NCBI GenBank assembly: GCA_039794845.1
Contig: JAUQVK010000112.1
Span: 1 to 64,000, forward strand
Reading direction: 5' to 3'
Origin: Thermostichus sp. DRC_bins_24
GTDB taxonomy: Bacteria; Cyanobacteriota; Cyanobacteriia; Thermostichales; Thermostichaceae
DNA length: 64,000 nt
In this document: positions 2,243 to 58,630 of the stretch, in pieces
Numbering within the stretch: the first letter of the stretch is position 1
Layout: every line of letters starts with the position of its first letter
The notes under the pieces: generated by a model
What the model saw: only the letters and a program-made list of their open reading frames with translations
Database searches by the model: none
Told to the model about the DNA's origin: nothing
Program-made: the position numbers and the translations under genes

Positions 2243-4705
2243 ATGCCCCCTCGCTCCTCTTCCCGGAGTGGTTCTACTCCATTTCCGTTTCTTGAAGGGA
2301 AAAGCTCTTCTTCTGCGGATGAGCCTGAGTCGAGGTTGCCCCTTGGTCAGCGTTTGGTACGGGCGGGGTTGCTCTCTCAATCCCAGTTGGCTCAGGCTCT
2401 GCGGGAGCAACAGCAAAACCACCTGAAGTTGGGGGAAGTATGCCTGGAGCGTGGTTGGTTAACCCTGCCGGATCTCTACCCTTTTATTCCCAGTCAGGCC
2501 CTCTCCTTGGGGGAGGTTTTGGTGGCCCTAGGCTACCTAGATTTTGAGCAGTTGCGGGTGGCCTTGGCCCAGCAGCGTCGCTACGGTCGGAAATTGGGGG
2601 AGATCTTAACCTGGAAGGGGTGGGTAAAGCCAGCCGTCTTGGAGCAGGCCTTGGATGTGCAGGTGCAACTGCAGCGCCTGGCTTCCCCCAATGCTTGGGA
2701 GGCGCTCCAGCCTTTCATGGCGGAGGCTCCCAAACTTGCGGCCCAACCCACTCCGGCAGGGCCTGGGGCTATGGATCTTCTGCAGGCGAACCGGATGCAA
2801 TCGGCCGCCCCAGTTACCCCTGTGCAACCAGTGCCGCCAGTTTCCCACCGAGAGGAGTCCGCCGAAGGTTTGCCGGCGGAAGCGGCCGAGATCCCACAGG
2901 AGGAACCCAAGCTATTCTCGGTTACACCCGAGCCTAAGGCAGAACCTGTTCCTGTAGCAGCTGCGCTGGATCCTTTTGCCCCCGAATCTCAACCCCTCAC
3001 GATTGCCGACTACCGCAAGCAAGTGGAAGCCTTGAAGTTGCAACTTCACTTGCAAGAGCGGGAATGGGACGGGATCCTGGCCAACATGAACCAGCAGATC
3101 GCCGATTTCCAGAGCCAGTACCAGCAGCGCATTCAAAAATTGGAAGCCACCATTCGTCTGCAGCAGGCAGAACTCCAGCAACAGGCCACCTTGCAGCAGG
3201 ATCTGAAGGTTTGGCAAGAACAACTGCAACGGCTGGAAACCGACCTGGCCAACGCCCGCGCCGCCGAACAAAAGGCCCAACGGCTGCTACAAACCCAGCA
3301 GGATTGCTATCAATCAGAATTGGAACAGCTGCAGGAGCAAATTCAGATTTTGCAAAAACGCCAGCTCGACTCGGTGCCCATGGGCGTGGTAGCCGACTTA
3401 CAGGCCCAGTTGGAGGCAGCTTTGCAGCAAGTACAGCAACTCCAGTCGGAACGGGACAGTCTAGAGGAGCAGCTTTTGCAAAGGATCCCTCAGGCTGGGA
3501 CTTCCCATCCCGTAGATCTGGTGGGGGAGCTGGAATCGGCCCGAGGTTCTCCTGTTTGCGTCAGTGGGGCAGAATCCCCGGAACTGACCTGTTTGCAAGC
3601 ACAGGTGGCCAGCCTGCAAGAGCAACTGTTGGAATCGTCAGCAGCCCTGAAGTCCTGGGAAGAGCGCTACGCTCAGTCGCAGCAGGAGCATGCAATGCAA
3701 GTGGCGCAGCTCTCCAGGCGTATCGACCCTGAGCTGGTGGAGGATCTTCAGGGGCAGCTCCGGCAGCTTCAGGTGGAAATGAACCGGTTGATCGCTGTGA
3801 ACCGTGACTATGAAGCGCAGATCGCCCAACAGAAGGAGCAGCTGCAGCAATGCCAAGCCTTGATCCACCAGCTCACCGCAGAACGGGCTGAAAAGTACCA
3901 ACGCATTGCTGAACTGGAGGCATCCCTGCAAACTCGACAGGAAACCCTGGAGCAAGCTCAGCAACAGCTGAAAAGTATGGGATCCCGCGTCAGTGCTCTA
4001 CAGCAGCAGCAGGCAAACTTGACGGTGGAACTGCAACATGCACGGGAACTGCTGACGGCCTATCGCCAGAGCCTGGAGTCTTTGCAGGAGAACCTGAAGA
4101 TTCAGGAGGATCAAAATCGTCTGCTTCAGGTAAGCTACGAGCAACAAAAGCTGATCGCCGAGGCGGCCCGAGCGGAGCTCGAGGCGGTCAGTGTTTCCGT
4201 GGCTCCCACCCGGCAGCGGGTGTCGGCGCGAACCGGGGGATTTGCAGGAAATGATTTAGGCGAGGGGGAACTCCTTTTGGATCCTGATGAGGATACGCTG
4301 CTGGATCCTCTGTTGGCGGAGCTAACCCCTTGGGCGCGGCATTTGTTCCAAAATTTGCAGGAGGCCGGTCTGCTGGCTCAGCCTCAGATCGAACACATCC
4401 TCAGCAACTGGCAGCAGTCGGGGGGGAAACTGACGGCGGTGATTGGCGAATGTACGGGCTTGAAACCCACCACGATCAAATTCTTCGCCGATGGGGGGTA
4501 TTCTGCTCGTCTGTCGGGATGTCGATCGCCAGGGGAGTTTCTCAAGGCTGCCGACCTGTTGCCCGCGGAGGTGTTCGAATCCCTGCCACTGATGGATGAG
4601 TCTTCTGAGCACTGGGGGGATCCCTTGGTGGAGCAGGGGTTGTTGCGGCCAGAGACGGTGCGGTATTTCCGCAAGCATTTCTCGCCTACCCCCGCCAATG
4701 GCTAA
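2243..4705 (+). CDS. Tandem MshEN-domain protein with long coiled coil
   Basis: Repeated LG-x2-L-x3-G(L/W/Y)-x5-L-x2-AL-x2-Q motifs in aa ~31-140; Q/E/L-rich heptads in the central region. Confidence 0.75.
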   Translation: MPPRSSSRSGSTPFPFLEGKSSSSADEPESRLPLGQRLVRAGLLSQSQLAQALREQQQNHLKLGEVCLERGWLTLPDLYPFIPSQALSLGEVLVALGYLDFEQLRVALAQQRRYGRKLGEILTWKGWVKPAVLEQALDVQVQLQRLASPNAWEALQPFMAEAPKLAAQPTPAGPGAMDLLQANRMQSAAPVTPVQPVPPVSHREESAEGLPAEAAEIPQEEPKLFSVTPEPKAEPVPVAAALDPFAPESQPLTIADYRKQVEALKLQLHLQEREWDGILANMNQQIADFQSQYQQRIQKLEATIRLQQAELQQQATLQQDLKVWQEQLQRLETDLANARAAEQKAQRLLQTQQDCYQSELEQLQEQIQILQKRQLDSVPMGVVADLQAQLEAALQQVQQLQSERDSLEEQLLQRIPQAGTSHPVDLVGELESARGSPVCVSGAESPELTCLQAQVASLQEQLLESSAALKSWEERYAQSQQEHAMQVAQLSRRIDPELVEDLQGQLRQLQVEMNRLIAVNRDYEAQIAQQKEQLQQCQALIHQLTAERAEKYQRIAELEASLQTRQETLEQAQQQLKSMGSRVSALQQQQANLTVELQHARELLTAYRQSLESLQENLKIQEDQNRLLQVSYEQQKLIAEAARAELEAVSVSVAPTRQRVSARTGGFAGNDLGEGELLLDPDEDTLLDPLLAELTPWARHLFQNLQEAGLLAQPQIEHILSNWQQSGGKLTAVIGECTGLKPTTIKFFADGGYSARLSGCRSPGEFLKAADLLPAEVFESLPLMDESSEHWGDPLVEQGLLRPETVRYFRKHFSPTPANG

Positions 4706-18516: not shown

Positions 18517-19560
18517 GGCTCTCCTAGACTTATGGTGATCAGCGATCACTAAGTCCAGAAGGCTGTCAATAATCGAGCTCTGAAGTTGGTCATATTGGTA
18601 AACCCGTACCCTTGTCGCTTTATTACCTTGATCCGGTTGTTGATTCCCTCCATCATCCCATTAGTCACACGATTCACAAAATAGTGACAGATCCCCTGAA
18701 GATGATTCCGGACTGCCTTGACCCCATCGGTGTGAACCCTTTGAGCCTCTGCCAGCCATGCGACCAGTTGACTCTCTCCCTCCTTTACAGTAATTATGCT
18801 CTCAAAAATGCTCCGCAACCTCTCTTTCAGTTCATAGGCTTGCCTCAGTCGTTTGCTCCGTTTTAAATAGATCTCCAGTTTTGCCTTTTCTTCCTCAGTT
18901 AAGTCTTTATTATTCTTAAGTATGATTCTTTTTAATCCTTTCTCTGTAATCTGAGCCTGTCGTCTAATTCTGTCTAACTCCTGGATGGCTTTCTGCCACA
19001 TGGAATCTGTCATAGACGATACGGGCCTTCGGAAATACCCGCCTGACAACTTTGGTAAATCCAGCCCACATATCGATACTCACTTCTTCCATCCTCAGCC
19101 TCTCTTCCTCTGCCCATAAGCTTTCCAGCCTTGCAATAAACTCTTCTTCTTTGTGAACATCAATCACCTCTAGCAGACAATGATTCTCTAGGTCGCCGAT
19201 AACTGTCACGTATTGATTGCGCCCTTTTCGTAAACTGATCTCGTCGATACTGATTTTCTTGGCCCGAAACACTGGGGCTCTTTTGGGCTTGTTGCTGCTC
19301 AGACTGACGCTTGAATATCCCTTCCACTTGGTCTCGACTTAATCCTTCATTCTGACTAACTTGTTCAATCGTCGATTGTTTGACTTGTCGATAAATAGAG
19401 GTTTCATAACGCTGTGTATAGGAGCGTTCCCAGTCCACGAATGAGAGGACTTCAGTGGAGTAGTGCTGGCAGTGAGAGCAATAAAATTGGCGGCGAGGCA
19501 CTTGCAGATAGACTGAACGCCCAAACAGGGACAAGTCTCGCACAACGAACCATTCTACAG
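18517..19560 (-). mobile_element. ISL3-family IS remnant; transposase 5'-truncated with two frameshifts
   Basis: RDLSLFG...RRQFYCSHC, ISIDEISLRKG, SIDMW, DRFHV, TNGMMEGINNRIKVIKRQGYGF across three ORFs; GGCTCT terminus at 18517. Confidence 0.92.
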
Positions 19561-19580
19561 TAAATCTCACCTGTTGGTAT

Positions 19581-38983: not shown

Positions 38984-39308
38984 TCTCCCTTTGCGCATTC
39001 TGGGCAGGCGTGGGTTTTGAGGGGAATCCTTTCGGGGCTTGAACCTGGCCGAGATCTGACGAAAGCCGCGATGGGGGTGGATTTGGTCGGCTCTATCCCT
39101 AGAGGATCTTGAATAAACCCGAAAGGAACAACACTACCTATAACATCAGGTCTGGAGGAATATGATAGCTTGGTGAGCATCGCGTTGGGTGAACCCCTGA
39201 AACAGCTCTCTCAGTTTGGGGTGGCCCACGGATGGTCGAAAACCATGGGTTGAGTCTATTCATCGTGCTTCGCAGGGTGCGGAGAGTCATCGCAGGAGGG
39301 GTGTGGGT

Positions 39309-42300
39309 ATGGTTCAGGGCAAAGAGATGCGTTCCGCAGAAGGGCTCGGATCCCTAAGCAACGGCGATTTCCCGGCAACGGCTCCGGCAGCCAATCCGGT
39401 TTTTTACCGCACCTACAGCCGCCGCACCGACAGAGGGCGGGAAACCTGGAGCCAGGTGTGTGATCGCACCCTGACGGATATCACCCAGCTAGGCCGGTTC
39501 ACCCCAGAGGAACAGGATTTGATCAACCGCATGCAGCGGCAACTGAAGGCCTTGATCTCGGGGCGGGCCCTGTGGGTGATGGGCACCGACTGGATCCATC
39601 GTCCGGAAAACTTTTCAGGGGCCTACAACTGCACGAGCACCAATGTGATTGATTGGCAGGCCTTTGGTTTGATGATGGATCTGGCCATGATGGGCTGTGG
39701 CACCGGGGCGGTGCTGGAACCCAAGTTCATCAACCGCCTACCGGCCATTGTGAATTATCTGAACATCCAGGTGGTAGGACAAATCGGAGCCACGCCGGCG
39801 AACCAACGCCAAGATCAAACCCGTATCCAGCGACAGGGATCCCGGGTGCACATCCAGGTGGGGGATAGCCGTCGCGGTTGGGTGGATTCCTATCAGGTGT
39901 TGATGGAATTGGCCTCGGATCCCAGTTTCTCGGGAACAATTGAACTCTCGGTGGATCTCAGCGATGTGCGGCCTGCGGGTGAGATTCTCAAGGGGTTTGG
40001 CGGGGTGGCCAACCCAATCAAATTACCCACTTTGTATGAGCGGTGTGCAGCCATTCTGAACAAAGCCGTAGGCCGACAATTGAACTCTGTCGAGTGTTGC
40101 TTGCTGATCGATGAAGCGGCTTCTTGTATCGTGGCCGGGAACATTAGGCGTAGCGCGGGGATGCGTCAATTTGCTGGGGAAGATGTGCTCGGATCCAATG
40201 CCAAAGATAACCTCTGGCAACAAGATGAAAAAGGCAATTGGCGCATTGATCCTGAACGGGATGCTCTGCGTATGGCCAATCACACCCGTGTATTTCACCG
40301 CAAACCCACTCTAGAAGAAACCATTGAGGCGGTGCGGAAGCAATTTTATTCCGGTGAAGGGGCCATTCAGTGGGCAGGTGAAGCGGTGGCACGGGCCAAC
40401 TGTGATCTGATCCCTCTCGATCAAAAGTCCGATTTTCTCAAGGCTTATGAGGCCGGATCTGCCAAAGATTGGCTGCAAAAGCGGGATCCCAATTTGAGCG
40501 AAGAAGAGCTAGAGGATCGAATCAGTCGTTATGGGTTGAATCCTTGTGTAACGGCTGACACTTGGATTCATACAGGAGATGGACCTCGTCAGGTGAAGGA
40601 TTTGATCGGGATCCAGCACAGTACTTATGTGAATGGGGAGTTATTCAGCACCACTCCCGAAGGCTTTTTCTATTCGGGTATCAAGCCGGTTTTCAAACTG
40701 ATAACTCAAGAAGGCTATGAATTGCGATTAACAGGCAATCATCGCGTGTTGAAAGTAACTGCTCAAACCCAGAAGAAACAATATACTCAATGGGTTTCTG
40801 CCGAAGATCTGCAGCCAGGGGATCGTGTGATACTCCATGATCATCGTGACCTTTGCCCTTGGGAAGGAGAAGGGAGCTTTGAAGAAGGATGGCTGCTGGG
40901 TAATTTGCTAGGTGATGGTAGTCTTGCCAAAACTCAGTGGAGTGATATGGGTTTGCTGCGTTTCTGGCAGGATACCCAAAGTGAAATGAGTGAACACGCC
41001 ATAGGTTGTCTGGAAAAAGCAACAGGATACACTCGTCGTACAGATCAAGCCCACTACCATGCTCAACTCAAATATCGAGTGGTTAGCTCTAGCAGTCTAG
41101 CAAGGTTGGCAGCACGTTTTGGTTTATTTCCAGGCCAAAAAGCACTGAATTCATCTATAGAAAAAGCCAGCTATCAATTCTACCGAGGTTTTTTGCGAGG
41201 ACTTTATGATGCAGATGGAACTGTGATTGGTTCTCAGCTCAAGGGAGTTAGTGTTCGCTTACCTCAAAGCAGCCTGCATACTCTACAAGCAGTTCAGCGA
41301 ATGCTAGCTCGACTGGGGATCATCTCTACCATTTGTCAGAATCGTCGCCCTGCTGGATCTCGACTTTTGCCGGATAGTCAACGCCAGCCTAAACTTTATT
41401 TCTGCCAGGCACAGCACGAGTTAGTTATTTCTAAGGACAATCTGCTGCAATTTCAATCTTTGATAGGATTCCAGGATCCTGAAAAATCTCAGAAACTTGA
41501 ACAACTTCTGTCTAATTATCAGAGAAATTTTAATCGGGAGCGCTTTACAGTTAAGGTTTTAGCTGTAAAGCCAGATGGAGTGGAACCTGTTTACGACTGT
41601 AGTGTGCCGGGGCCAAATCAATTTGATGCCAATGGCTTTGTTGCCCACAATTGTGGGGAAATCATCGGATCTAACTATCATTGCAATTTGTCCGAAATCC
41701 ACCTAAATCAGATGGATCCCTACAACTACAAAGAACAAGAGGAAGCCTTTGCCGCCGGGGCATTGGCGGTAGCGGCCCTACTGAATCATCGTTTTCAAGA
41801 ACCCCGTTATCAACGCTCGCGGGAATGGGATCCGATTGTGGGGGTATCCTTTACCGGGTTGTTCGACTTTTTTGTGAAAGCCTTTGGGGTGGAATGGCTG
41901 CGTTGGTGGCAGGAGGGGCGACCGGAAACCATGACCGGCCTGACCTTCAAGCAAAAAGAGCAGGATTACCTCTCTCGCTGGCGGGAGGTGGTGCACCAAA
42001 CCGTCTGGGACTACTGCGACCGCCACGGACTGCGCCGACCCAATCGCTGTACGACCGTGCAACCGGCGGGGACCAAGTCGCTTCTGACGGGGGCAGCACC
42101 CGGTTGGCATCCTCCCAAGGCACAACGGTATATTCGCCGTATTACCTTCGGCAAAAATGACCCGGTGGCCCTGGCCTGTTTGGAATACGGCTACTCAATC
42201 GTGCCCTCGCAGTCGGACAAAGATGAGAACGGTAACCTTCTCAACGATCCCTTTGATCCGCGCTGTACGGAATGGCTGGTGGAATTGCCCGTAGAAGTGC

Positions 42301-42725
42301 CCTGGGCCAATTTGCCCGGTGCCGATCAGATCGAGCTCGAACAGTTTTCTGCTCTGGCCCAATTTGACTTTTACATGCAGGTGCAGAAGCACTACACCAC
42401 CCACAACACCTCCGCTACCATTGAGCTGCGAGAAGACGAAGTGGAAGGGCTGGGATCCCGTATATTTGAGGCGATCCAAGGGGATGAGGGATACATCAGT
42501 GCCGCCTTGCTGGCTCGTTTTGATGCGCCGTTTCCGCGGCTGCCCTTTGAGAAGATTGACAAAGCCACCTATGAGCGGCTCTCGGCAGAAGTGTTGCGCC
42601 GTCGGCAAACCGAGGACTTCTTCGAGGCCTTGATGCGCTACGACCGCGGCTTTTTGAATACGGAAGGGCCGGCGGGTTGCGATGCCATGGGGTGTCTGCT
42701 GCCGGAAGCAGCTCCCCAAAGCTAG
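39309..42725 (+). CDS. nrdJ: Class II (B12-dependent) ribonucleoside-triphosphate reductase, intein-containing
   Basis: APAANPVFYRTYSR, YNCTS, GNIRRSA, NP|CGEI, TVQPAGTKSLL, C-terminal CDAMGC. Confidence 0.97.
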   Translation: MVQGKEMRSAEGLGSLSNGDFPATAPAANPVFYRTYSRRTDRGRETWSQVCDRTLTDITQLGRFTPEEQDLINRMQRQLKALISGRALWVMGTDWIHRPENFSGAYNCTSTNVIDWQAFGLMMDLAMMGCGTGAVLEPKFINRLPAIVNYLNIQVVGQIGATPANQRQDQTRIQRQGSRVHIQVGDSRRGWVDSYQVLMELASDPSFSGTIELSVDLSDVRPAGEILKGFGGVANPIKLPTLYERCAAILNKAVGRQLNSVECCLLIDEAASCIVAGNIRRSAGMRQFAGEDVLGSNAKDNLWQQDEKGNWRIDPERDALRMANHTRVFHRKPTLEETIEAVRKQFYSGEGAIQWAGEAVARANCDLIPLDQKSDFLKAYEAGSAKDWLQKRDPNLSEEELEDRISRYGLNPCVTADTWIHTGDGPRQVKDLIGIQHSTYVNGELFSTTPEGFFYSGIKPVFKLITQEGYELRLTGNHRVLKVTAQTQKKQYTQWVSAEDLQPGDRVILHDHRDLCPWEGEGSFEEGWLLGNLLGDGSLAKTQWSDMGLLRFWQDTQSEMSEHAIGCLEKATGYTRRTDQAHYHAQLKYRVVSSSSLARLAARFGLFPGQKALNSSIEKASYQFYRGFLRGLYDADGTVIGSQLKGVSVRLPQSSLHTLQAVQRMLARLGIISTICQNRRPAGSRLLPDSQRQPKLYFCQAQHELVISKDNLLQFQSLIGFQDPEKSQKLEQLLSNYQRNFNRERFTVKVLAVKPDGVEPVYDCSVPGPNQFDANGFVAHNCGEIIGSNYHCNLSEIHLNQMDPYNYKEQEEAFAAGALAVAALLNHRFQEPRYQRSREWDPIVGVSFTGLFDFFVKAFGVEWLRWWQEGRPETMTGLTFKQKEQDYLSRWREVVHQTVWDYCDRHGLRRPNRCTTVQPAGTKSLLTGAAPGWHPPKAQRYIRRITFGKNDPVALACLEYGYSIVPSQSDKDENGNLLNDPFDPRCTEWLVELPVEVPWANLPGADQIELEQFSALAQFDFYMQVQKHYTTHNTSATIELREDEVEGLGSRIFEAIQGDEGYISAALLARFDAPFPRLPFEKIDKATYERLSAEVLRRRQTEDFFEALMRYDRGFLNTEGPAGCDAMGCLLPEAAPQS
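40545..41651 (+). mobile_element. Intein with LAGLIDADG homing endonuclease (369 aa)
   Basis: Starts CVTADT, block B LTGNHRV, LLGNLLGDG and FLRGLYDADG, ends VAHN before Cys; visibly more AT-rich than the exteins. Confidence 0.97.
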
Positions 42726-53869: not shown

Positions 53870-56671
53870 GTGGACTACAAAAGCACCCTTAACCTGCCCC
53901 AAACTCAGTTTTCCATGCGGGCAGAGGCCGCCAAGAAAGAACCCGCCATTCAAGCCTTTTGGCAGGAAGAGCAGATTTATCAACGCCTTTCGGAAAACAA
54001 CAGCGGGGATCCCTTTGTGCTGCACGATGGGCCGCCCTACGCCAATGGCGACATTCACATGGGCACCACCCTCAACAAGATCCTCAAGGATATTGTCAAC
54101 AAGTATCAGATCCTGCGAGGACGCAAGGTGCGCTACGTGCCCGGCTGGGACTGTCATGGCCTGCCGATCGAGCTGAAGGTGCTGCAAAGCCTGCCCGCCC
54201 AAGAGCGGGAAAGTCTCACCCCCCTGCAACTGCGGCAAAAGGCCAAAGCCTATGCCCTGGGCTACATCGATACCCAGCGCACCAGCTTCAAACGCTTGGG
54301 GGTATGGGGATCCTGGGATCGGCCGTACATGACCCTGAAACCCGAATACGAAGCCGCCCAGATCGAGGTGTTTGGGCAGATGGCCCTGAAGGGGTATATC
54401 TACCGTGGCCTCAAGCCGGTGCATTGGAGCCCCAGCTCCCAGACGGCCTTGGCCGAAGCAGAGTTGGAATATCCCGAGAATCACATCTCCCGCAGCATCT
54501 ATGTGGCCTTTCCCCTGAAAAGCCTCAGCCCCTCAGCCCAAGCGGTTTTGGATCCCTTTCTGCCGGGTTTGCGGGTGGCCATTTGGACCACGACCCCCTG
54601 GACGATCCCGGCCAACTTGGCCCTCTGTTTTAGCCCCAAGCTCACCTATGCCGTGGTGGAATCCCCAACCTTTGGGCATCTCCTAATCGCGGCGGATCTA
54701 CGGGGGCGGCTGGAAAAAGTCTTAGAAACCTCCCTTGAGGTAAAGGCGACCCTACCGGGCTCCGCCCTGGAATACTCCCAAGGGCAGCACCCCCTCTACG
54801 ACCGCACCAGCCTCTGTGTCTTGGGAGAATACGTCACCACCGAATCGGGGACCGGCATTGTCCATACCGCCCCAGGACATGGGGAAGACGACTTCAAAAC
54901 CGGCCAAAAATATGGCCTGCCCATCCTCAGCCCGGTGGATGATCAGGGAAAATTTACGGCTGAGGCGGGGGCCGATTTTGTCGGGTTGGATGTGCTCTCC
55001 AAAAAGCCGGAAACCAGTGGCAATGCCGCCGTGATCAAGGCTCTGCAGGCAGCCGGTGCCCTCCTCAAAGAAGAACCCTACAACCACAAATATCCCTACG
55101 ACTGGCGCACCAAGGAGCCGACGATTTTTCGGGCCACCGAGCAGTGGTTTGCCTCCGTTGCCGGATTCCGGGATCTGGCCCTGAAGGCGATCAAAGACGT
55201 GAAATGGATCCCGGCGATTGGCGAAAATCGCATCACCGCGATGGTGGCAGAACGTTCCGATTGGTGCATTTCCCGGCAACGGGCCTGGGGTGTGCCCATC
55301 CCCGTATTTTACGACGAAGAAACCGGGGATCCCTTGCTCACGGCCGAAACCATTGACCACATCAAAACCATTTTTGCCCAAGAGGGATCCGATGCTTGGT
55401 GGACTCACTCGGTGGAAGACCTGCTGCCGGAAACCTACCGTCACAATGGCCGTACCTACCGCAAGGGCATGGACACAATGGATGTCTGGTTTGACTCCGG
55501 TTCTTCTTGGGCAGCGGTGGCCAAAGCACAGGGACTGGGCTATCCCGTGGATATGTATTTGGAGGGATCCGATCAACACCGGGGTTGGTTCCAATCCAGT
55601 TTGCTCACGTCCGTGGCGGTGAATGGTCATGCCCCCTACAAATCGGTGTTGACCCACGGATTTGTGCTGGATGAAAAAGGCCAGAAAATGAGCAAATCCC
55701 TGGGCAATGTGATTGACCCGATGCTGTTGATCAACGGCGGAAAAAATCTGCAAACGGATCCCGCCTATGGGGCCGATGTGCTGCGGCTATGGGTTTCTAG
55801 TGTGGATTATTCCGGTGATGTGCCGCTGGGCAAAACCATTCTTGGCCAAATGGCGGATGTGTACCGCAAGATCCGCAATACTGCTCGGTTTTTATTGAGC
55901 AACCTCTATGATTTTGACCCGGCCCAGGATGCTCTGTCTTTTGCTGAACTGACGGAGTTGGATCGCTACATTCTCCACCGCCTGAAAGCGGTGGGATCCG
56001 AAATCACCGAGTCTTTTGAGAGTTACCAGTTCTACCGCTTTTTCCAAGCAATTCAGAATTTTTGCGTGGTGGATCTCTCCAATTTTTATTTGGATATCAG
56101 CAAGGACCGTCTGTATATTAGCCATGCCCAAAGTCCACGGCGGCGACAATGTCAAACGGTGCTGGCCATCCTGCTGGAAAATCTGGCCAAGGCAATTGCC
56201 CCCGTTCTGTCCCACATGGCCGAGGAAATTTGGATGCATCTTCCCTACCCCAAGCCCACCCCATCGGTGTTCGAAGCGGGCTGGATGAGCTTGCCCGAGA
56301 CTTGGTCGGATCCCCAGTTGTCTGCCACCTGGGAGCAGTTGCGTTCTGTACGGCAAGAGGTGAACAAAGCCCTCGAGCAAGCCCGCACCGAAAAGCTGAT
56401 CGGGGCGTCCACCGAAGCCAAGGTCATCCTTAAGGTGGGGGATCCCGGTCTTTACCGGATCCTGGAAGATCATGCTGCGGAGTTGCGTTACCTATTGATT
56501 ACCTCACAGGTAGAAGTGGCCAAATCGACAGAGGGGTTGGAGATCATTGTTCAGCCTGCCGAGGGTAAAAAATGCGTGCGCTGCTGGAACCATTCCATTC
56601 ATGTGGGCGAATCCGCCGAGCATCCAGAATTGTGTGAGCGCTGTGTGGCGGCTTTAGCAGGAACCTTTTGA
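53870..56671 (+). CDS. ileS: Isoleucine-tRNA ligase
   Basis: LHDGPPYANG-x-IHMG, WTTTPWT, DWCISRQR, GSDQHRGWF, KMSKS, C-terminal zinc finger. Confidence 0.99.
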   Translation: MDYKSTLNLPQTQFSMRAEAAKKEPAIQAFWQEEQIYQRLSENNSGDPFVLHDGPPYANGDIHMGTTLNKILKDIVNKYQILRGRKVRYVPGWDCHGLPIELKVLQSLPAQERESLTPLQLRQKAKAYALGYIDTQRTSFKRLGVWGSWDRPYMTLKPEYEAAQIEVFGQMALKGYIYRGLKPVHWSPSSQTALAEAELEYPENHISRSIYVAFPLKSLSPSAQAVLDPFLPGLRVAIWTTTPWTIPANLALCFSPKLTYAVVESPTFGHLLIAADLRGRLEKVLETSLEVKATLPGSALEYSQGQHPLYDRTSLCVLGEYVTTESGTGIVHTAPGHGEDDFKTGQKYGLPILSPVDDQGKFTAEAGADFVGLDVLSKKPETSGNAAVIKALQAAGALLKEEPYNHKYPYDWRTKEPTIFRATEQWFASVAGFRDLALKAIKDVKWIPAIGENRITAMVAERSDWCISRQRAWGVPIPVFYDEETGDPLLTAETIDHIKTIFAQEGSDAWWTHSVEDLLPETYRHNGRTYRKGMDTMDVWFDSGSSWAAVAKAQGLGYPVDMYLEGSDQHRGWFQSSLLTSVAVNGHAPYKSVLTHGFVLDEKGQKMSKSLGNVIDPMLLINGGKNLQTDPAYGADVLRLWVSSVDYSGDVPLGKTILGQMADVYRKIRNTARFLLSNLYDFDPAQDALSFAELTELDRYILHRLKAVGSEITESFESYQFYRFFQAIQNFCVVDLSNFYLDISKDRLYISHAQSPRRRQCQTVLAILLENLAKAIAPVLSHMAEEIWMHLPYPKPTPSVFEAGWMSLPETWSDPQLSATWEQLRSVRQEVNKALEQARTEKLIGASTEAKVILKVGDPGLYRILEDHAAELRYLLITSQVEVAKSTEGLEIIVQPAEGKKCVRCWNHSIHVGESAEHPELCERCVAALAGTF

Positions 56672-56928
56672 GTATTTGGCCAACTCAGGCAGATAGGGTT
56701 ACAACCCCTCACCTAGCCGTTGCAAATGGATTCTGGAGGAGTCTCACCGGATGATTGATTGCTGCGGGCATTCTCCGGAATCGGCCACCGGGAGATGCCA
56801 GCAGAGGAAGCAGGCTGCTGTCAGCACCTCAGGCAATGCACGAAATCTAGCACGCAGCAGACCCCTCCACCCCAAAGATGGCCTTGGGGATCCCATCCTA
56901 AATCTGAATTCAAAATCAATGGGATCCG

Positions 56929-57153
56929 CTATTGCCCCTGCTGCTCTATGGCACGGCGCAATTCACTGGCCATGTCCATAAACTCTCGCGGATTACCCGC
57001 AGTGCCATAGGAGGAGCGATCTTGAACCTTCTTGCCGCTGCCTTGGCGGGTACGGCTGTTGAACAAGGAACTGGCCATGTCCAGGAACTTAGCGGGATTT
57101 CCCTCGCTGCTGGCCCGCGTTGAGGAGCCCCGTCCGGCACGAGTGATAGCCAT
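56929..57153 (-). CDS. 74-aa protein with duplicated GNPxxFxDMAS motif
   Basis: Internal repeat conserved at protein level (GNPAKFLDMASSL / GNPREFMDMASEL). Confidence 0.75.
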   Translation of the reverse strand: MAITRAGRGSSTRASSEGNPAKFLDMASSLFNSRTRQGSGKKVQDRSSYGTAGNPREFMDMASELRRAIEQQGQ

Positions 57154-57260
57154 AACTGTCGCGATTCTCAGAAATGAAATGCTTGTTCACATCATCCCAC
57201 AAGGGATCGGCGATCAACCAGGGCAAATGCTGCATCTTGTTAAGCCGCCCCAAGGTGAGG

Positions 57261-58079
57261 TCAGCGGGTTGTGGTCTTCTCTTGGGTGAAGCGATGGGTC
57301 AGCCAAATGGGGAGCACCGTCAGGGCAATCACTCCCAAAGCCACCACGTTGATCACCGGGCGCTGTCGGGGCTTGGTCAATTGGCTAAACACCCAAATCG
57401 GCAAGGTTTGCTGTTGTCCGGCCGTGAAGGTGGTGACGATGATCTCATCAAAAGACAGGGCAAACGCCAGCAGGGATCCCGCCAATAGAGCTGTGGCCAG
57501 CTCAGGCAAAAGAATGTGCCGAAAAGTTTGCAGAGGATTGGCCCCCAGATCCGCAGAGGCTTCCAGTTGCGAACGTCCCATGCGGCGAAACCGGGCCAGC
57601 ACGTTGTTGTACACCACCACCAAGCAGAAGGTGGCATGGCCGATGACAATTGTCCAAAAGCTAAAGGGGATGTGGAGCAAATTCACCGCCGAACGCAAGG
57701 CGATCCCGGAGACAATGCCCGGCAAGGCAATGGGCAGCAACACCAAAAAGGAGATCGTCTCACGGCCAAAAAATCGACTGCGATAGACCGCCGCCGCCGC
57801 CAGGGATCCCAGCACCACGGCCACCCCCGTCGCCACCAAAGCCACCCGCAACGACAAAAACAAGGCCCGCCAAATATCCGCCCGTCCCCACGCCACCCCA
57901 AACCAATGCCACGTCAGCCCCGGTAACGGAAAGCGCAAGGTCGCCTCATCGGAGGAAAATGCATAGAGAATGATCACCAACAAGGGCAAATGGAGAAAGA
58001 GCAGCACCCCCAGCGAGAGGATGATCCAAGGCCACCGGCTGACGGGAAGAACCAAACGGGGGAAAGAGCGAAACAGCAT
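57261..58079 (-). CDS. PotC-like ABC permease
   Basis: [21 protein letters not shown] (EAA motif), FALSFDE, TLPIW. Confidence 0.9.
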
Positions 58080-58102
58080 GGGGGTTAGTCTACAAATAAT
58101 CC

Positions 58103-58630
58103 TCAAAAATAGCCGGCATTTTTCAGGCTTTGCATCACCAAGTCAATACATTCCGGGATGCTTTGTTCTGCCGTTTTACACACTACTTCAGGATATTCCG
58201 GGGGCTCGTAAGGATCGTCAATGCCGGTGAAATGCTGAATTAAACCCGCCCGCGCCTTTTGATATAGGCCCTTCACATCCCGACGTTCGCATACCTCAAG
58301 AGGGGCATCCACAAAGACTTCGATAAAGTTGCCAATGTGCTGCCGTACCTCCTGCCGCACCGCCCGATAGGGGGAAATGGCCGATACCAACACGATCACC
58401 CCCTGCCGAGTCAGAAGACCCGCCACAAACCCAATGCGGCGAATGTTCTCGTCCCGATCCGTCTTGCTAAAGCCCAGCCCTTTGGTGAGGTGTTGCCGCA
58501 CCACATCCCCGTCTAGCACCTCCACAGGCAGCCCCCAAGCCCGTAGCTGTTGGGCCACTCCTTGACTGAGGGTGGTTTTGCCCGCTCCGCTTAGCCCCGT
58601 AAACCAAACCGTTACCCCCCGCCGCGACAT
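58103..58630 (-). CDS. cysC: Adenylyl-sulfate kinase
   Basis: [32 protein letters not shown]. Confidence 0.98.

What the first reader, a model, noticed from the sequence alone, without database searches (positions are those of the whole stretch)
56929..57153. Mini-protein of two FxxM motifs: candidate bivalent phycobilisome core linker
Seen: GNPAKFLDMASSL and GNPREFMDMASEL joined by a flexible basic Ser/Gly/Arg spacer, with nothing else in the 74 aa. Known: the C-terminal arm of rod-core linker CpcG has a GDPxxFLxMA motif, and FxxM helices in CpcG and ApcG dock on allophycocyanin. Inference: a stand-alone two-headed peptide that could cross-link core cylinders or neighbouring phycobilisomes, or compete with rods for docking sites. 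It lies outside any cpc/apc cluster, so it would be easy to miss.
Basis: partly seen in the sequence, partly recalled or inferred. Interest (0 to 1): 0.8.

Follow-up and report, generated by a model that had tools for sequence, protein, structure and literature searches.

The report
Two-headed phycobilisome-linker-like mini-protein
A real, conserved 74-residue cyanobacterial protein built from two copies of the short helix motif that rod-core linkers use to grip the phycobilisome core; it may clip or regulate the light-harvesting antenna, but binding has not been shown.

Summary
The ORF at 56929-57153 (-) exists and encodes 74 aa with two G-N-P-x-x-F-x-x-M-A-S-x-L motifs. It is a real gene. 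There are 33 relatives of 51-104 aa; the 8 whose names give an organism are all cyanobacteria. dN/dS is 0.11-0.30. The internal repeat beat 5000 of 5000 shuffles. The spacer is not a loose linker. Q37, G38, G40 and K41 are invariant, and the two motifs lie exactly 35 residues apart in 31 of 31 full-length two-repeat members; one member has three repeats. AlphaFold2 gives two helices starting at each GNP and no fold. No Pfam or NCBIfam family claims it.

The link to phycobilisomes is weak but coherent. Three family profiles searched against 177,635 PDB sequences put Synechocystis CpcG1 (residues 211-229) and/or rod-core linker LRC1 (214-234) on top. These are the C-terminal FxxMA stretches, but E is only 1.3-1.9. 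The other six PDB searches gave unrelated hits or none. Binding to allophycocyanin is inferred, not shown.

Verdict: an uncharacterised, lineage-restricted family, best read as a bivalent core-groove-binding peptide (confidence about 0.45). It is a new variant of a known kind.

The parts
56929..57153 (-). CDS of the 74-aa mini-protein (stop codon included)
   Evidence: ORF list and translation. There are 33 relatives. dN/dS is 0.11-0.30 against 6 orthologues.
57064..57102 (-). Motif 1, residues 18-30 (GNP cap followed by FxxMA..L)
   Evidence: G18, A27 and L30 are invariant in 26 of 26 members. It lies within predicted helix 20-37. It matches the NCBIfam CpcG4 profile at 206-228/250 with E 0.12.
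57007..57054 (-). Conserved inter-motif segment, residues 34-49 (R.xQGxGKxxxDxxS[YF])
   Evidence: Q37, G38, G40 and K41 are invariant in 26 of 26 members. There are no indels: the spacing is 35 residues in 31 of 31 members. AlphaFold2 predicts residues 38-49 of it as coil; residues 34-37 lie within helix 20-37.
56959..56997 (-). Motif 2, residues 53-65 (GNP cap followed by FxxMA..L)
   Evidence: G53, P55 and A62 are invariant. It lies within predicted helix 55-73. This is the profile region that aligns to CpcG1 211-229 and LRC1 214-234.
57166..57201 (-). Conserved upstream element, 13-48 nt before the start codon; a candidate promoter/operator or 5' leader
   Evidence: Aligned in 8 of 8 loci whatever gene lies upstream. 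Unique in the window, with 0 matches expected by chance. No Rfam match and no sigma-70 consensus.
56855..56932 (-). 3' flank with stem-loops (possible transcript end, facing the convergent ileS)
   Evidence: RNA fold of -31.4 kcal/mol, z = -2.37, with 3 of 200 shuffles folding as well. The terminator scan found none.

Best explanation
The gene encodes a small, basic, mostly unfolded protein made of two tandem units of about 35 residues. Each unit is an extended Gly/Ser/Arg/Lys segment followed by a GNP-capped amphipathic helix carrying F-x-x-M-A-x-x-L.

This helix is the same motif that the C-terminal extension of the rod-core linker CpcG/LRC1 carries. The phycobilisome papers assign that motif to the helices of CpcG, ApcG and ApcI/LcpA that sit in surface grooves of allophycocyanin.

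I propose that both helices dock at once into two allophycocyanin grooves on neighbouring discs or subunits of the phycobilisome core. The conserved 35-residue connector would run along the surface between them. The protein would then act as a free-standing two-point clip. It has no rod domain (Pfam00427) and no photosystem-binding part.

Shown: a real gene under purifying selection; the internal duplication; the fixed register; the two predicted helices; motif-level similarity to CpcG1 and LRC1.

Inferred: binding to allophycocyanin, bivalency, and the consequence. I put core stabilisation somewhat ahead of blocking of linker sites.
For: - It is a gene. 33 relatives have E <= 1e-3 among 1144 candidates, 8 representatives turn up among 1.84 billion proteins, and dN/dS is 0.11-0.30.
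- It is a repeat. 0 of 5000 shuffles reach the observed half-against-half score.
- The register is fixed. The spacing is 35 in 31 of 31 two-repeat members and 37/35 in the three-repeat member P0015. Q37, G38, G40 and K41 are invariant.
- It has helices but no fold. AlphaFold2 gives helices 20-37 and 55-73, pTM 0.26.
- It is basic like linker polypeptides. K+R is 12 against D+E 7, and net charge is positive in 33 of 34 members.
- It resembles the core-binding stretch of rod-core linkers. Profile A2 against 177,635 PDB sequences gave 2 hits, both rod-core linkers: CpcG1 211-228 and LRC1 214-233. A6 gave 1 hit, LRC1. A7, built without any Thermostichus-clade (74-aa) member, had CpcG1 211-229 as top hit. 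NCBIfam CpcG4 matches at profile positions 206-228/250.
- The literature gives the role of this motif. FxxMA is the 'helix interacting with APC' of CpcG, ApcG, LcpA and Lpp2 (PMC11789067, passages). [quoted passage not shown] CpcG C-terminal extensions traverse several core layers (bioRxiv 2025.04.28.650843, passages).
- Every relative whose name gives an organism is a cyanobacterium (8 of 33; the other 25 names give none).
Against: - Every match to a phycobilisome linker is statistically marginal: E 1.3-1.9 in PDB and 0.063-0.17 in NCBIfam.
- 6 of 9 PDB searches gave no phycobilisome hit. P0001 gave 2 unrelated hits. A1 gave a designed SNARE. The repeat-unit profile A5 gave 2 unrelated proteins carrying AGNPA.F. 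P0015, P0032 and P0026 gave none.
- An obviously spurious GrpE match scores better (E 2.3e-4; it matched 5 of 26 members of A6), so hits at this level can be noise.
- CpcG4 matched only 3 of 26 members.
- No chain named ApcG was ever hit.
- Phe is replaced by Tyr, or Met by A/I/V/F, in one or both motifs of 11 of 31 two-repeat members. In ApcG the Phe is described as completely conserved.
- No phycobilisome gene lies nearby in the window or among the neighbours examined in 7 related loci.
- The family is confined to a few lineages although allophycocyanin is universal, so it cannot be a core structural requirement.
- There are no expression, proteomic or binding data.
Confidence: 0.45

Rival explanations
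1. The protein binds the same allophycocyanin grooves, but it acts as a regulated competitor rather than a clip. By occupying the grooves used by the C-terminal extensions of CpcG (rods) or ApcG/ApcI (photosystem tethers), it would lower rod number or loosen coupling of the antenna to photosystems. Two heads would give avidity.
For: The motif evidence is the same as for the main reading. The best similarity is to the CpcG helix itself, which is what a mimic would need. A strongly conserved upstream element (8 of 8 loci; unique in the window) suggests controlled expression. ApcI is described as swapping in under stress (title and abstract of bioRxiv 2024.09.09.612062).
Against: A competitor needs neither a fixed 35-residue register nor an invariant QGxGK connector. 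There are no expression data and binding is unproven.
Confidence: 0.17
2. The protein is not phycobilisome-related. It would be a small disordered basic protein whose two amphipathic helices bind some other cyanobacterial target, such as a membrane surface, a photosystem subunit, phycocyanin or a regulator. The likeness to the CpcG helix would be convergent or chance.
For: All linker matches sit at noise-level E-values, and unrelated proteins match equally well in some searches. F/Y and M/I/V/A/F variation occurs in 11 of 31 members. The genomic context is housekeeping only. No family library holds it.
Against: Three overlapping family profiles each put a rod-core linker on top of 177,635 sequences, always at the same C-terminal FxxMA stretch. 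An independent library points to the same region of CpcG4. The family is found only in cyanobacteria wherever the organism is named.
Confidence: 0.3
3. The ORF is a leftover or derivative of the N-terminus of a Stf0/NodH-type sulfotransferase next to cysC, or otherwise has to do with sulfation.
For: 2 of 13 close relatives match NCBIfam trehalose 2-sulfotransferase at profile positions 6-37/261, E 0.06. 1 of 26 members matches Pfam Sulphotransf, E 0.099. One source labels the 51-aa form 'LPS sulfotransferase NodH'. cysC lies upstream in the window and in 5 of 7 loci.
Against: The score is 12.6 bits against a cut-off of 400. Only two near-identical members match. The cysC neighbourhood is lost in the more distant loci L006 and L007. 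The internal duplication, the fixed length of 66-74 aa and purifying selection on this frame do not fit a remnant. No longer relative was found (weak evidence).
Confidence: 0.03
4. It is not a functional gene: a chance ORF, or sequence conserved for an RNA or for the opposite strand.
For: The ORF is small, has no recognisable Shine-Dalgarno sequence or sigma-70 consensus, and overlaps ORFs in other frames.
Against: dN/dS is 0.11-0.30 with dS up to 1.2. The start, stop and length are conserved in 7 loci. Relatives down to about 40% identity keep both motifs.
Confidence: 0.02

Closest known systems
C-terminal extension of the rod-core linker CpcG / red-algal LRC1
   Same: It shares the A-G-[ND]-P-x-x-F-L-x-M-A helix motif. 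Family profiles align to CpcG1 211-229 and LRC1 214-234 and to CpcG4 profile positions 206-228. Both have an extended basic segment before the helix. CpcG's extension runs over several core layers.
   Different: It has no Pfam00427 rod domain. It has two heads (in one member three) instead of one. It is a free-standing protein of 66-74 aa. Homology as opposed to convergence was not established (E about 1-2).
ApcG (sll1873) and ApcI/LcpA (sll1911/A0913): small linkers with a C-terminal FxxM(A) 'PBS-binding domain'
   Same: They are small, largely disordered proteins in which a short FxxM(A) helix is the core-binding module. The module is found attached to different partners, which is a precedent for reuse.
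   Different: ApcG and ApcI have one helix plus an N-terminal part that binds photosystem II. Here there is no such part, but a second copy of the helix instead. No search here matched a chain named ApcG. The Phe is not strictly conserved: it is Tyr in some members.
NblA (small two-helix phycobilisome-binding degradation adaptor; its properties are recalled, not from a call)
   Same: A protein of roughly 60-70 residues with two helices that acts on phycobilisomes.
   Different: There is no Pfam match of any kind at E <= 10 for P0001, and none to NblA among 26 members. The motifs are different. Here the helices are not predicted to pack against each other (pTM 0.26).

Membership tests
FxxM(A) / 'HIWA' core-binding helix proteins (CpcG C-terminus, ApcG, ApcI/LcpA, Lpp2) | An F-x-x-M-A motif inside a short alpha-helix | tested here: met
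   P0001 has two FxxMA motifs, both inside predicted helices 20-37 and 55-73. 20 of 31 two-repeat relatives have two strict FxxMA motifs, 10 have one and 1 has none. All 31 have two [FY]xx[MILVFA]A motifs.
FxxM(A) / 'HIWA' core-binding helix proteins | Sequence similarity to the core-binding helix of a structurally characterised member | tested here: inconclusive
   CpcG1 211-229 and/or LRC1 214-234 are the top hits of profiles A2, A6 and A7, but at E 1.3-1.9. The other 6 of 9 PDB searches gave no phycobilisome hit. NCBIfam CpcG4 matches with E 0.063-0.17, in 3 of 26 members of A6 and 4 of 12 of A1.
FxxM(A) / 'HIWA' core-binding helix proteins | Physical binding to allophycocyanin (the ApcA groove, or ApcF/ApcB) | not testable with these tools
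   This needs a pull-down or co-sedimentation with phycobilisomes, or a structure.
FxxM(A) / 'HIWA' core-binding helix proteins | A second, different module that the helix tethers to the core (rod domain, or photosystem-II-binding N-terminus) | tested here: not met
   The protein is 74 aa with no Pfam domain. The remainder is a second copy of the same unit. No longer, fused form was found at E <= 10 (weak evidence).
CpcG / phycobilisome linker polypeptides (Pfam00427) | A Pfam00427 linker domain | tested here: not met
   No Pfam match at E <= 10. None of 26 members matches PF00427.
ApcG (sll1873 family) | A conserved N-terminal region, a positively charged middle and a single C-terminal helix | tested here: inconclusive
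   The architecture differs: two helices and no distinct N-terminal domain. No chain named ApcG appeared in any of the 9 PDB searches. I did not verify that ApcG chains are in the PDB copy searched.
GrpE | Reaches the curated NCBIfam cut-off | tested here: not met
   The best score is 20.8 bits against a cut-off of 192. Only 5 of 26 members of A6 match.
Stf0/NodH sulfotransferases | Reaches the curated cut-off; a full sulfotransferase domain | tested here: not met
   12.6 bits against a cut-off of 400, in 2 of 13 proteins. Pfam matches 1 of 26 members at E 0.099.

The most novel reading that the evidence does not exclude
This would be a new class of phycobilisome accessory: a free-standing, multivalent 'staple' made only of allophycocyanin-groove-binding helices. 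It has two heads at a fixed 35-residue register, and three in one relative. It has no linker domain and no photosystem anchor. It would fasten neighbouring allophycocyanin discs, cylinders or whole phycobilisomes together, or cap linker docking sites. It is confined to Thermostichales and a few other cyanobacterial lineages, and it is controlled by its own conserved upstream element.
Probability: 0.3. Interest if true: 0.75.

Novelty: new variant of a known kind. Interest (0 to 1): 0.55.

Why it matters
Recent work (ApcG, ApcI/LcpA) shows that one short FxxM(A) helix is a portable module for attaching things to the phycobilisome core. A protein that consists of nothing but two such modules at a fixed distance would be the simplest possible core cross-linker or docking-site blocker.

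It would give a direct handle on how core stability, rod number or phycobilisome packing is tuned in the hot-spring Thermostichus/Synechococcus clade to which the window and its close relatives belong. It is cheap to test, because a 74-residue peptide can be made and added to isolated phycobilisomes. It also shows that motif-level searches can find antenna components that domain libraries miss.

Tried and rejected
- **Complex prediction.** I sent two Swiss-Prot references for Synechocystis allophycocyanin alpha and beta, named from memory, with the family alignment as partner. The tool's verdict was 'no answer'. The job was also flawed: the second reference resolved to a 240-residue protein, which cannot be the roughly 160-residue beta chain (length recalled). 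Allophycocyanin beta was therefore not in the job.
- **Repeat-unit profile from diverse members.** I stopped that step. The only repeat-unit profile searched was the narrow one built from window and locus references (A5). It gave 2 unrelated hits.
- **Single-sequence PDB searches.** P0001, P0015, P0032 and P0026 gave unrelated hits or none.
- **Pfam and NCBIfam.** No family claims it. I reject the weak GrpE, KA1 and Stf0 matches as noise.
- **ESM Atlas.** No usable hit, for the whole protein and for residues 36-74.
- **Search for longer or fused forms.** None at E <= 10 among 7999 candidates scored. The tool calls this weak evidence.
- **Genome scan.** Alignments A2 and A3 were too diverse for the tool. 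A4 worked but reached only close relatives: 7 loci. Presence or absence of apcG, apcI and cpcG in these genomes, and the sequence of the Thermostichus CpcG C-terminus, stayed unchecked.
- **The listing of cluster members.** Not available, so accessions and locus tags are unknown and no expression data could be looked up.
- **Phages and plasmids.** No tblastn match.
- **RNA and signal scans.** No Rfam match; no promoter or terminator consensus.
- **Papers.** The supplement of PMC11789067 had no mention of Thermostichus or of the motif. PMC10904348 is not held. bioRxiv supplements, including the ApcG/ApcI genome table, are closed.

Full report
**What is there**

The minus-strand ORF at 56929..57153 encodes 74 residues. 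It carries GNPAKFLDMASSL at residues 18-30 and GNPREFMDMASEL at residues 53-65. It lies convergent to ileS (53870-56671, +). It is downstream of a PotC-like ABC permease (57261-58106, -) and cysC (58103-58630, -). None of the 52 larger window ORFs scanned against NCBIfam is a phycobilisome gene.

**Is it more than chance, and is it a gene?**

- The pattern G[ND]Pxx[FY]xxMA occurs only twice in the 127,996 residues of the window's six-frame translation. Both occurrences are in this ORF.
- The N-half aligns to the C-half with score 52, against 18.2 +/- 3.7 in shuffles; 0 of 5000 shuffles reach it. The alignment runs upstream of the GNP, so the repeat unit is about 35 residues.
- Close relatives: 12 of 12 candidates, of which 11 are exactly 74 aa, at 73-93% identity, from Thermostichus and hot-spring Synechococcus.
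- An exhaustive search of 1.84 billion representatives found 8 more distant relatives of 51-104 aa, at 47-57% identity.
- A profile search found 33 relatives in all among 1144 candidates. All are 'hypothetical' apart from one odd label. Eight carry organism names, and all eight are cyanobacteria.
- The genome scan reached 7 loci.
- Against the 6 same-length orthologues, dN/dS is 0.11-0.30 with dS of 0.4-1.2. L006 was left out because it is 67 aa.

So this is a conserved protein-coding gene of an uncharacterised family. It has no Pfam family and no NCBIfam family above cut-off.

**Anatomy**

- In a 26-member alignment, G18, A27, L30, Q37, G38, G40, K41, G53, P55 and A62 are invariant. That alignment holds 26 of the 34 proteins; I left out 5 near-duplicates, the two 51-aa forms and the three-repeat form.
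- The inter-motif segment is therefore conserved, not a free tether.
- The two capped motifs are exactly 35 residues apart in 31 of 31 full-length two-repeat members, although identity falls to about 40%.
- P0015 (104 aa) has three units, spaced 37 and 35.
- Strict FxxMA occurs twice in 20 of the 31, once in 10 and not at all in 1. Tyr can replace Phe, and A/I/V/F can replace Met.
- Net charge is positive in 33 of 34 members.
- AlphaFold2 with this alignment gives two helices, 20-37 and 55-73, each starting at the Pro of GNP. The rest is coil and there is no tertiary fold (mean pLDDT 64.6, pTM 0.26).

**Link to phycobilisomes**

What the papers say:
- ApcG's binding domain has a conserved FxxM motif whose Phe interdigitates with ApcA (bioRxiv 2023.05.22.541798; bioRxiv 2024.09.09.612062).
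- The same FxxMA helix, named 'helix interacting with APC', is present in LcpA, ApcG, Lpp2 and CpcG (PMC11789067).
- CpcG1 attaches to the core by a 60-residue C-terminal extension, with a short helix in an ApcA groove (bioRxiv 2021.11.15.468712).
- For all of these I read passages or one section, not whole texts.

What the searches here show:
- Profile A2 (11 members) against 177,635 distinct PDB sequences returned two hits at E <= 10. Both are rod-core linkers at their C-terminal FxxMA stretch: CpcG1 211-228 and LRC1 214-233.
- Profile A6 (26 members) returned one hit, LRC1 214-234.
- Profile A7 (17 members, none from the Thermostichus clade) returned CpcG1 211-229 first and a de novo helical barrel second.
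- NCBIfam's CpcG4 model matches repeat 1 at profile positions 206-228 of 250.

Against this:
- All of these E-values are marginal: 1.3-1.9 in PDB and 0.063-0.17 in NCBIfam.
- The narrow profiles A1 and A5 and four single sequences gave only unrelated hits or none.
- CpcG4 matched just 3 of 26 members, and a plainly spurious GrpE match scores better.

My reading is that no single hit is significant. However, landing repeatedly on the same functional 20-residue stretch of one small protein class, with a cyanobacterial query, is unlikely to be chance. This argument is an inference, and I did not count how many such linkers the PDB holds. Whether the likeness is common descent from a CpcG C-terminus or convergence is open.

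**Mechanism proposed**

The protein would be a basic, disordered peptide whose two GNP-capped amphipathic helices dock into two allophycocyanin surface grooves at once. The invariant 35-residue connector would lie along the surface, as CpcG extensions do when they cross core layers. The fixed register and the three-unit relative argue for simultaneous multi-site binding on a regular lattice. That fits a clip better than a simple one-site competitor, but a two-headed blocker of CpcG/ApcG sites remains a serious rival. Binding itself is not shown.

**Context**

- Neighbours are housekeeping genes and vary between loci. cysC lies upstream in the window and in 5 of 7 loci, potC in the window and 2 of 7, and ileS in none of the 7.
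- Among the 19 neighbouring ORFs scanned by Pfam, none is a phycobilisome gene.
- A block of about 55 nt just upstream of the start is conserved in 8 of 8 loci whatever gene lies upstream. It is unique in the window. This suggests the gene has its own control region.

**Compared with what is known**

- It works most like the FxxM(A) module of CpcG, ApcG and ApcI/LcpA.
- It is not a member of the CpcG family, because it has no Pfam00427 domain.
- It does not have the ApcG/ApcI architecture, because it lacks a distinct N-terminal partner-binding part.
- Tandem FxxMA proteins are not in print as far as my searches go. Searches for 'FxxM'/'ApcG', for 'HIWA motif'/'FxxMA'/'helix interacting with APC', for Thermostichus with phycobilisome and linker, and for ApcH found nothing of the kind.

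**What stayed unchecked**

- The native CpcG, ApcG and ApcI of these genomes.
- Any expression or proteomic data.
- bioRxiv supplements.
- The closed metagenome and viral collections.
- A valid complex prediction.

Noticed in passing
window 57154-57215 (-), core 57166-57201: A block of about 55 nt directly upstream of the mini-gene is conserved in 8 of 8 loci, including the most divergent (L006). This holds whether potC, cysC or an amine oxidase gene lies upstream. It contains an ATTTC ATTTC direct repeat and a TTCTGAGAA near-palindrome. It is unique in the window, has no Rfam match and has no sigma-70 consensus.
   Followed up: partly
protein P0015, no window coordinates: One relative (104 aa, from an unnamed record) has three repeat units, spaced 37 and 35 residues. 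Its first unit uses a G-D-P cap, as LRC1 does.
   Followed up: partly
proteins P0013 and P0021: Two 51-aa forms begin at the Met inside motif 1, so they are probably mis-called starts. One source labels P0013 'LPS sulfotransferase NodH'. Two close relatives give weak Stf0 sulfotransferase matches (E 0.06, profile positions 6-37/261) over the QGSGK segment. cysC is the upstream neighbour in most Thermostichus-clade loci. I judge this to be coincidence.
   Followed up: partly
window 56855-56932 (-): The 3' flank of the mini-gene, facing the end of ileS, folds into nested stem-loops (-31.4 kcal/mol, z = -2.37). It includes a hairpin with an 8-pair stem, and no U-tract follows.
   Followed up: partly
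window 39216-42725 (+): A 1169-aa adenosylcobalamin-dependent ribonucleoside-triphosphate reductase matches its model in two stretches. Its middle matches intein-containing models (GyrA with intein, DnaB), so it probably carries an intein.
   Followed up: no
window 18549-19570 (-): Two adjacent ORFs (166 and 136 aa) match different parts of an ISL3-family transposase. This looks like a disrupted insertion sequence.
   Followed up: no
window 2243-4705 (+): An 820-aa protein has two MshE-type cyclic-di-GMP-binding motifs at its N-terminus and a long coiled-coil-like region that resembles SMC.
   Followed up: no
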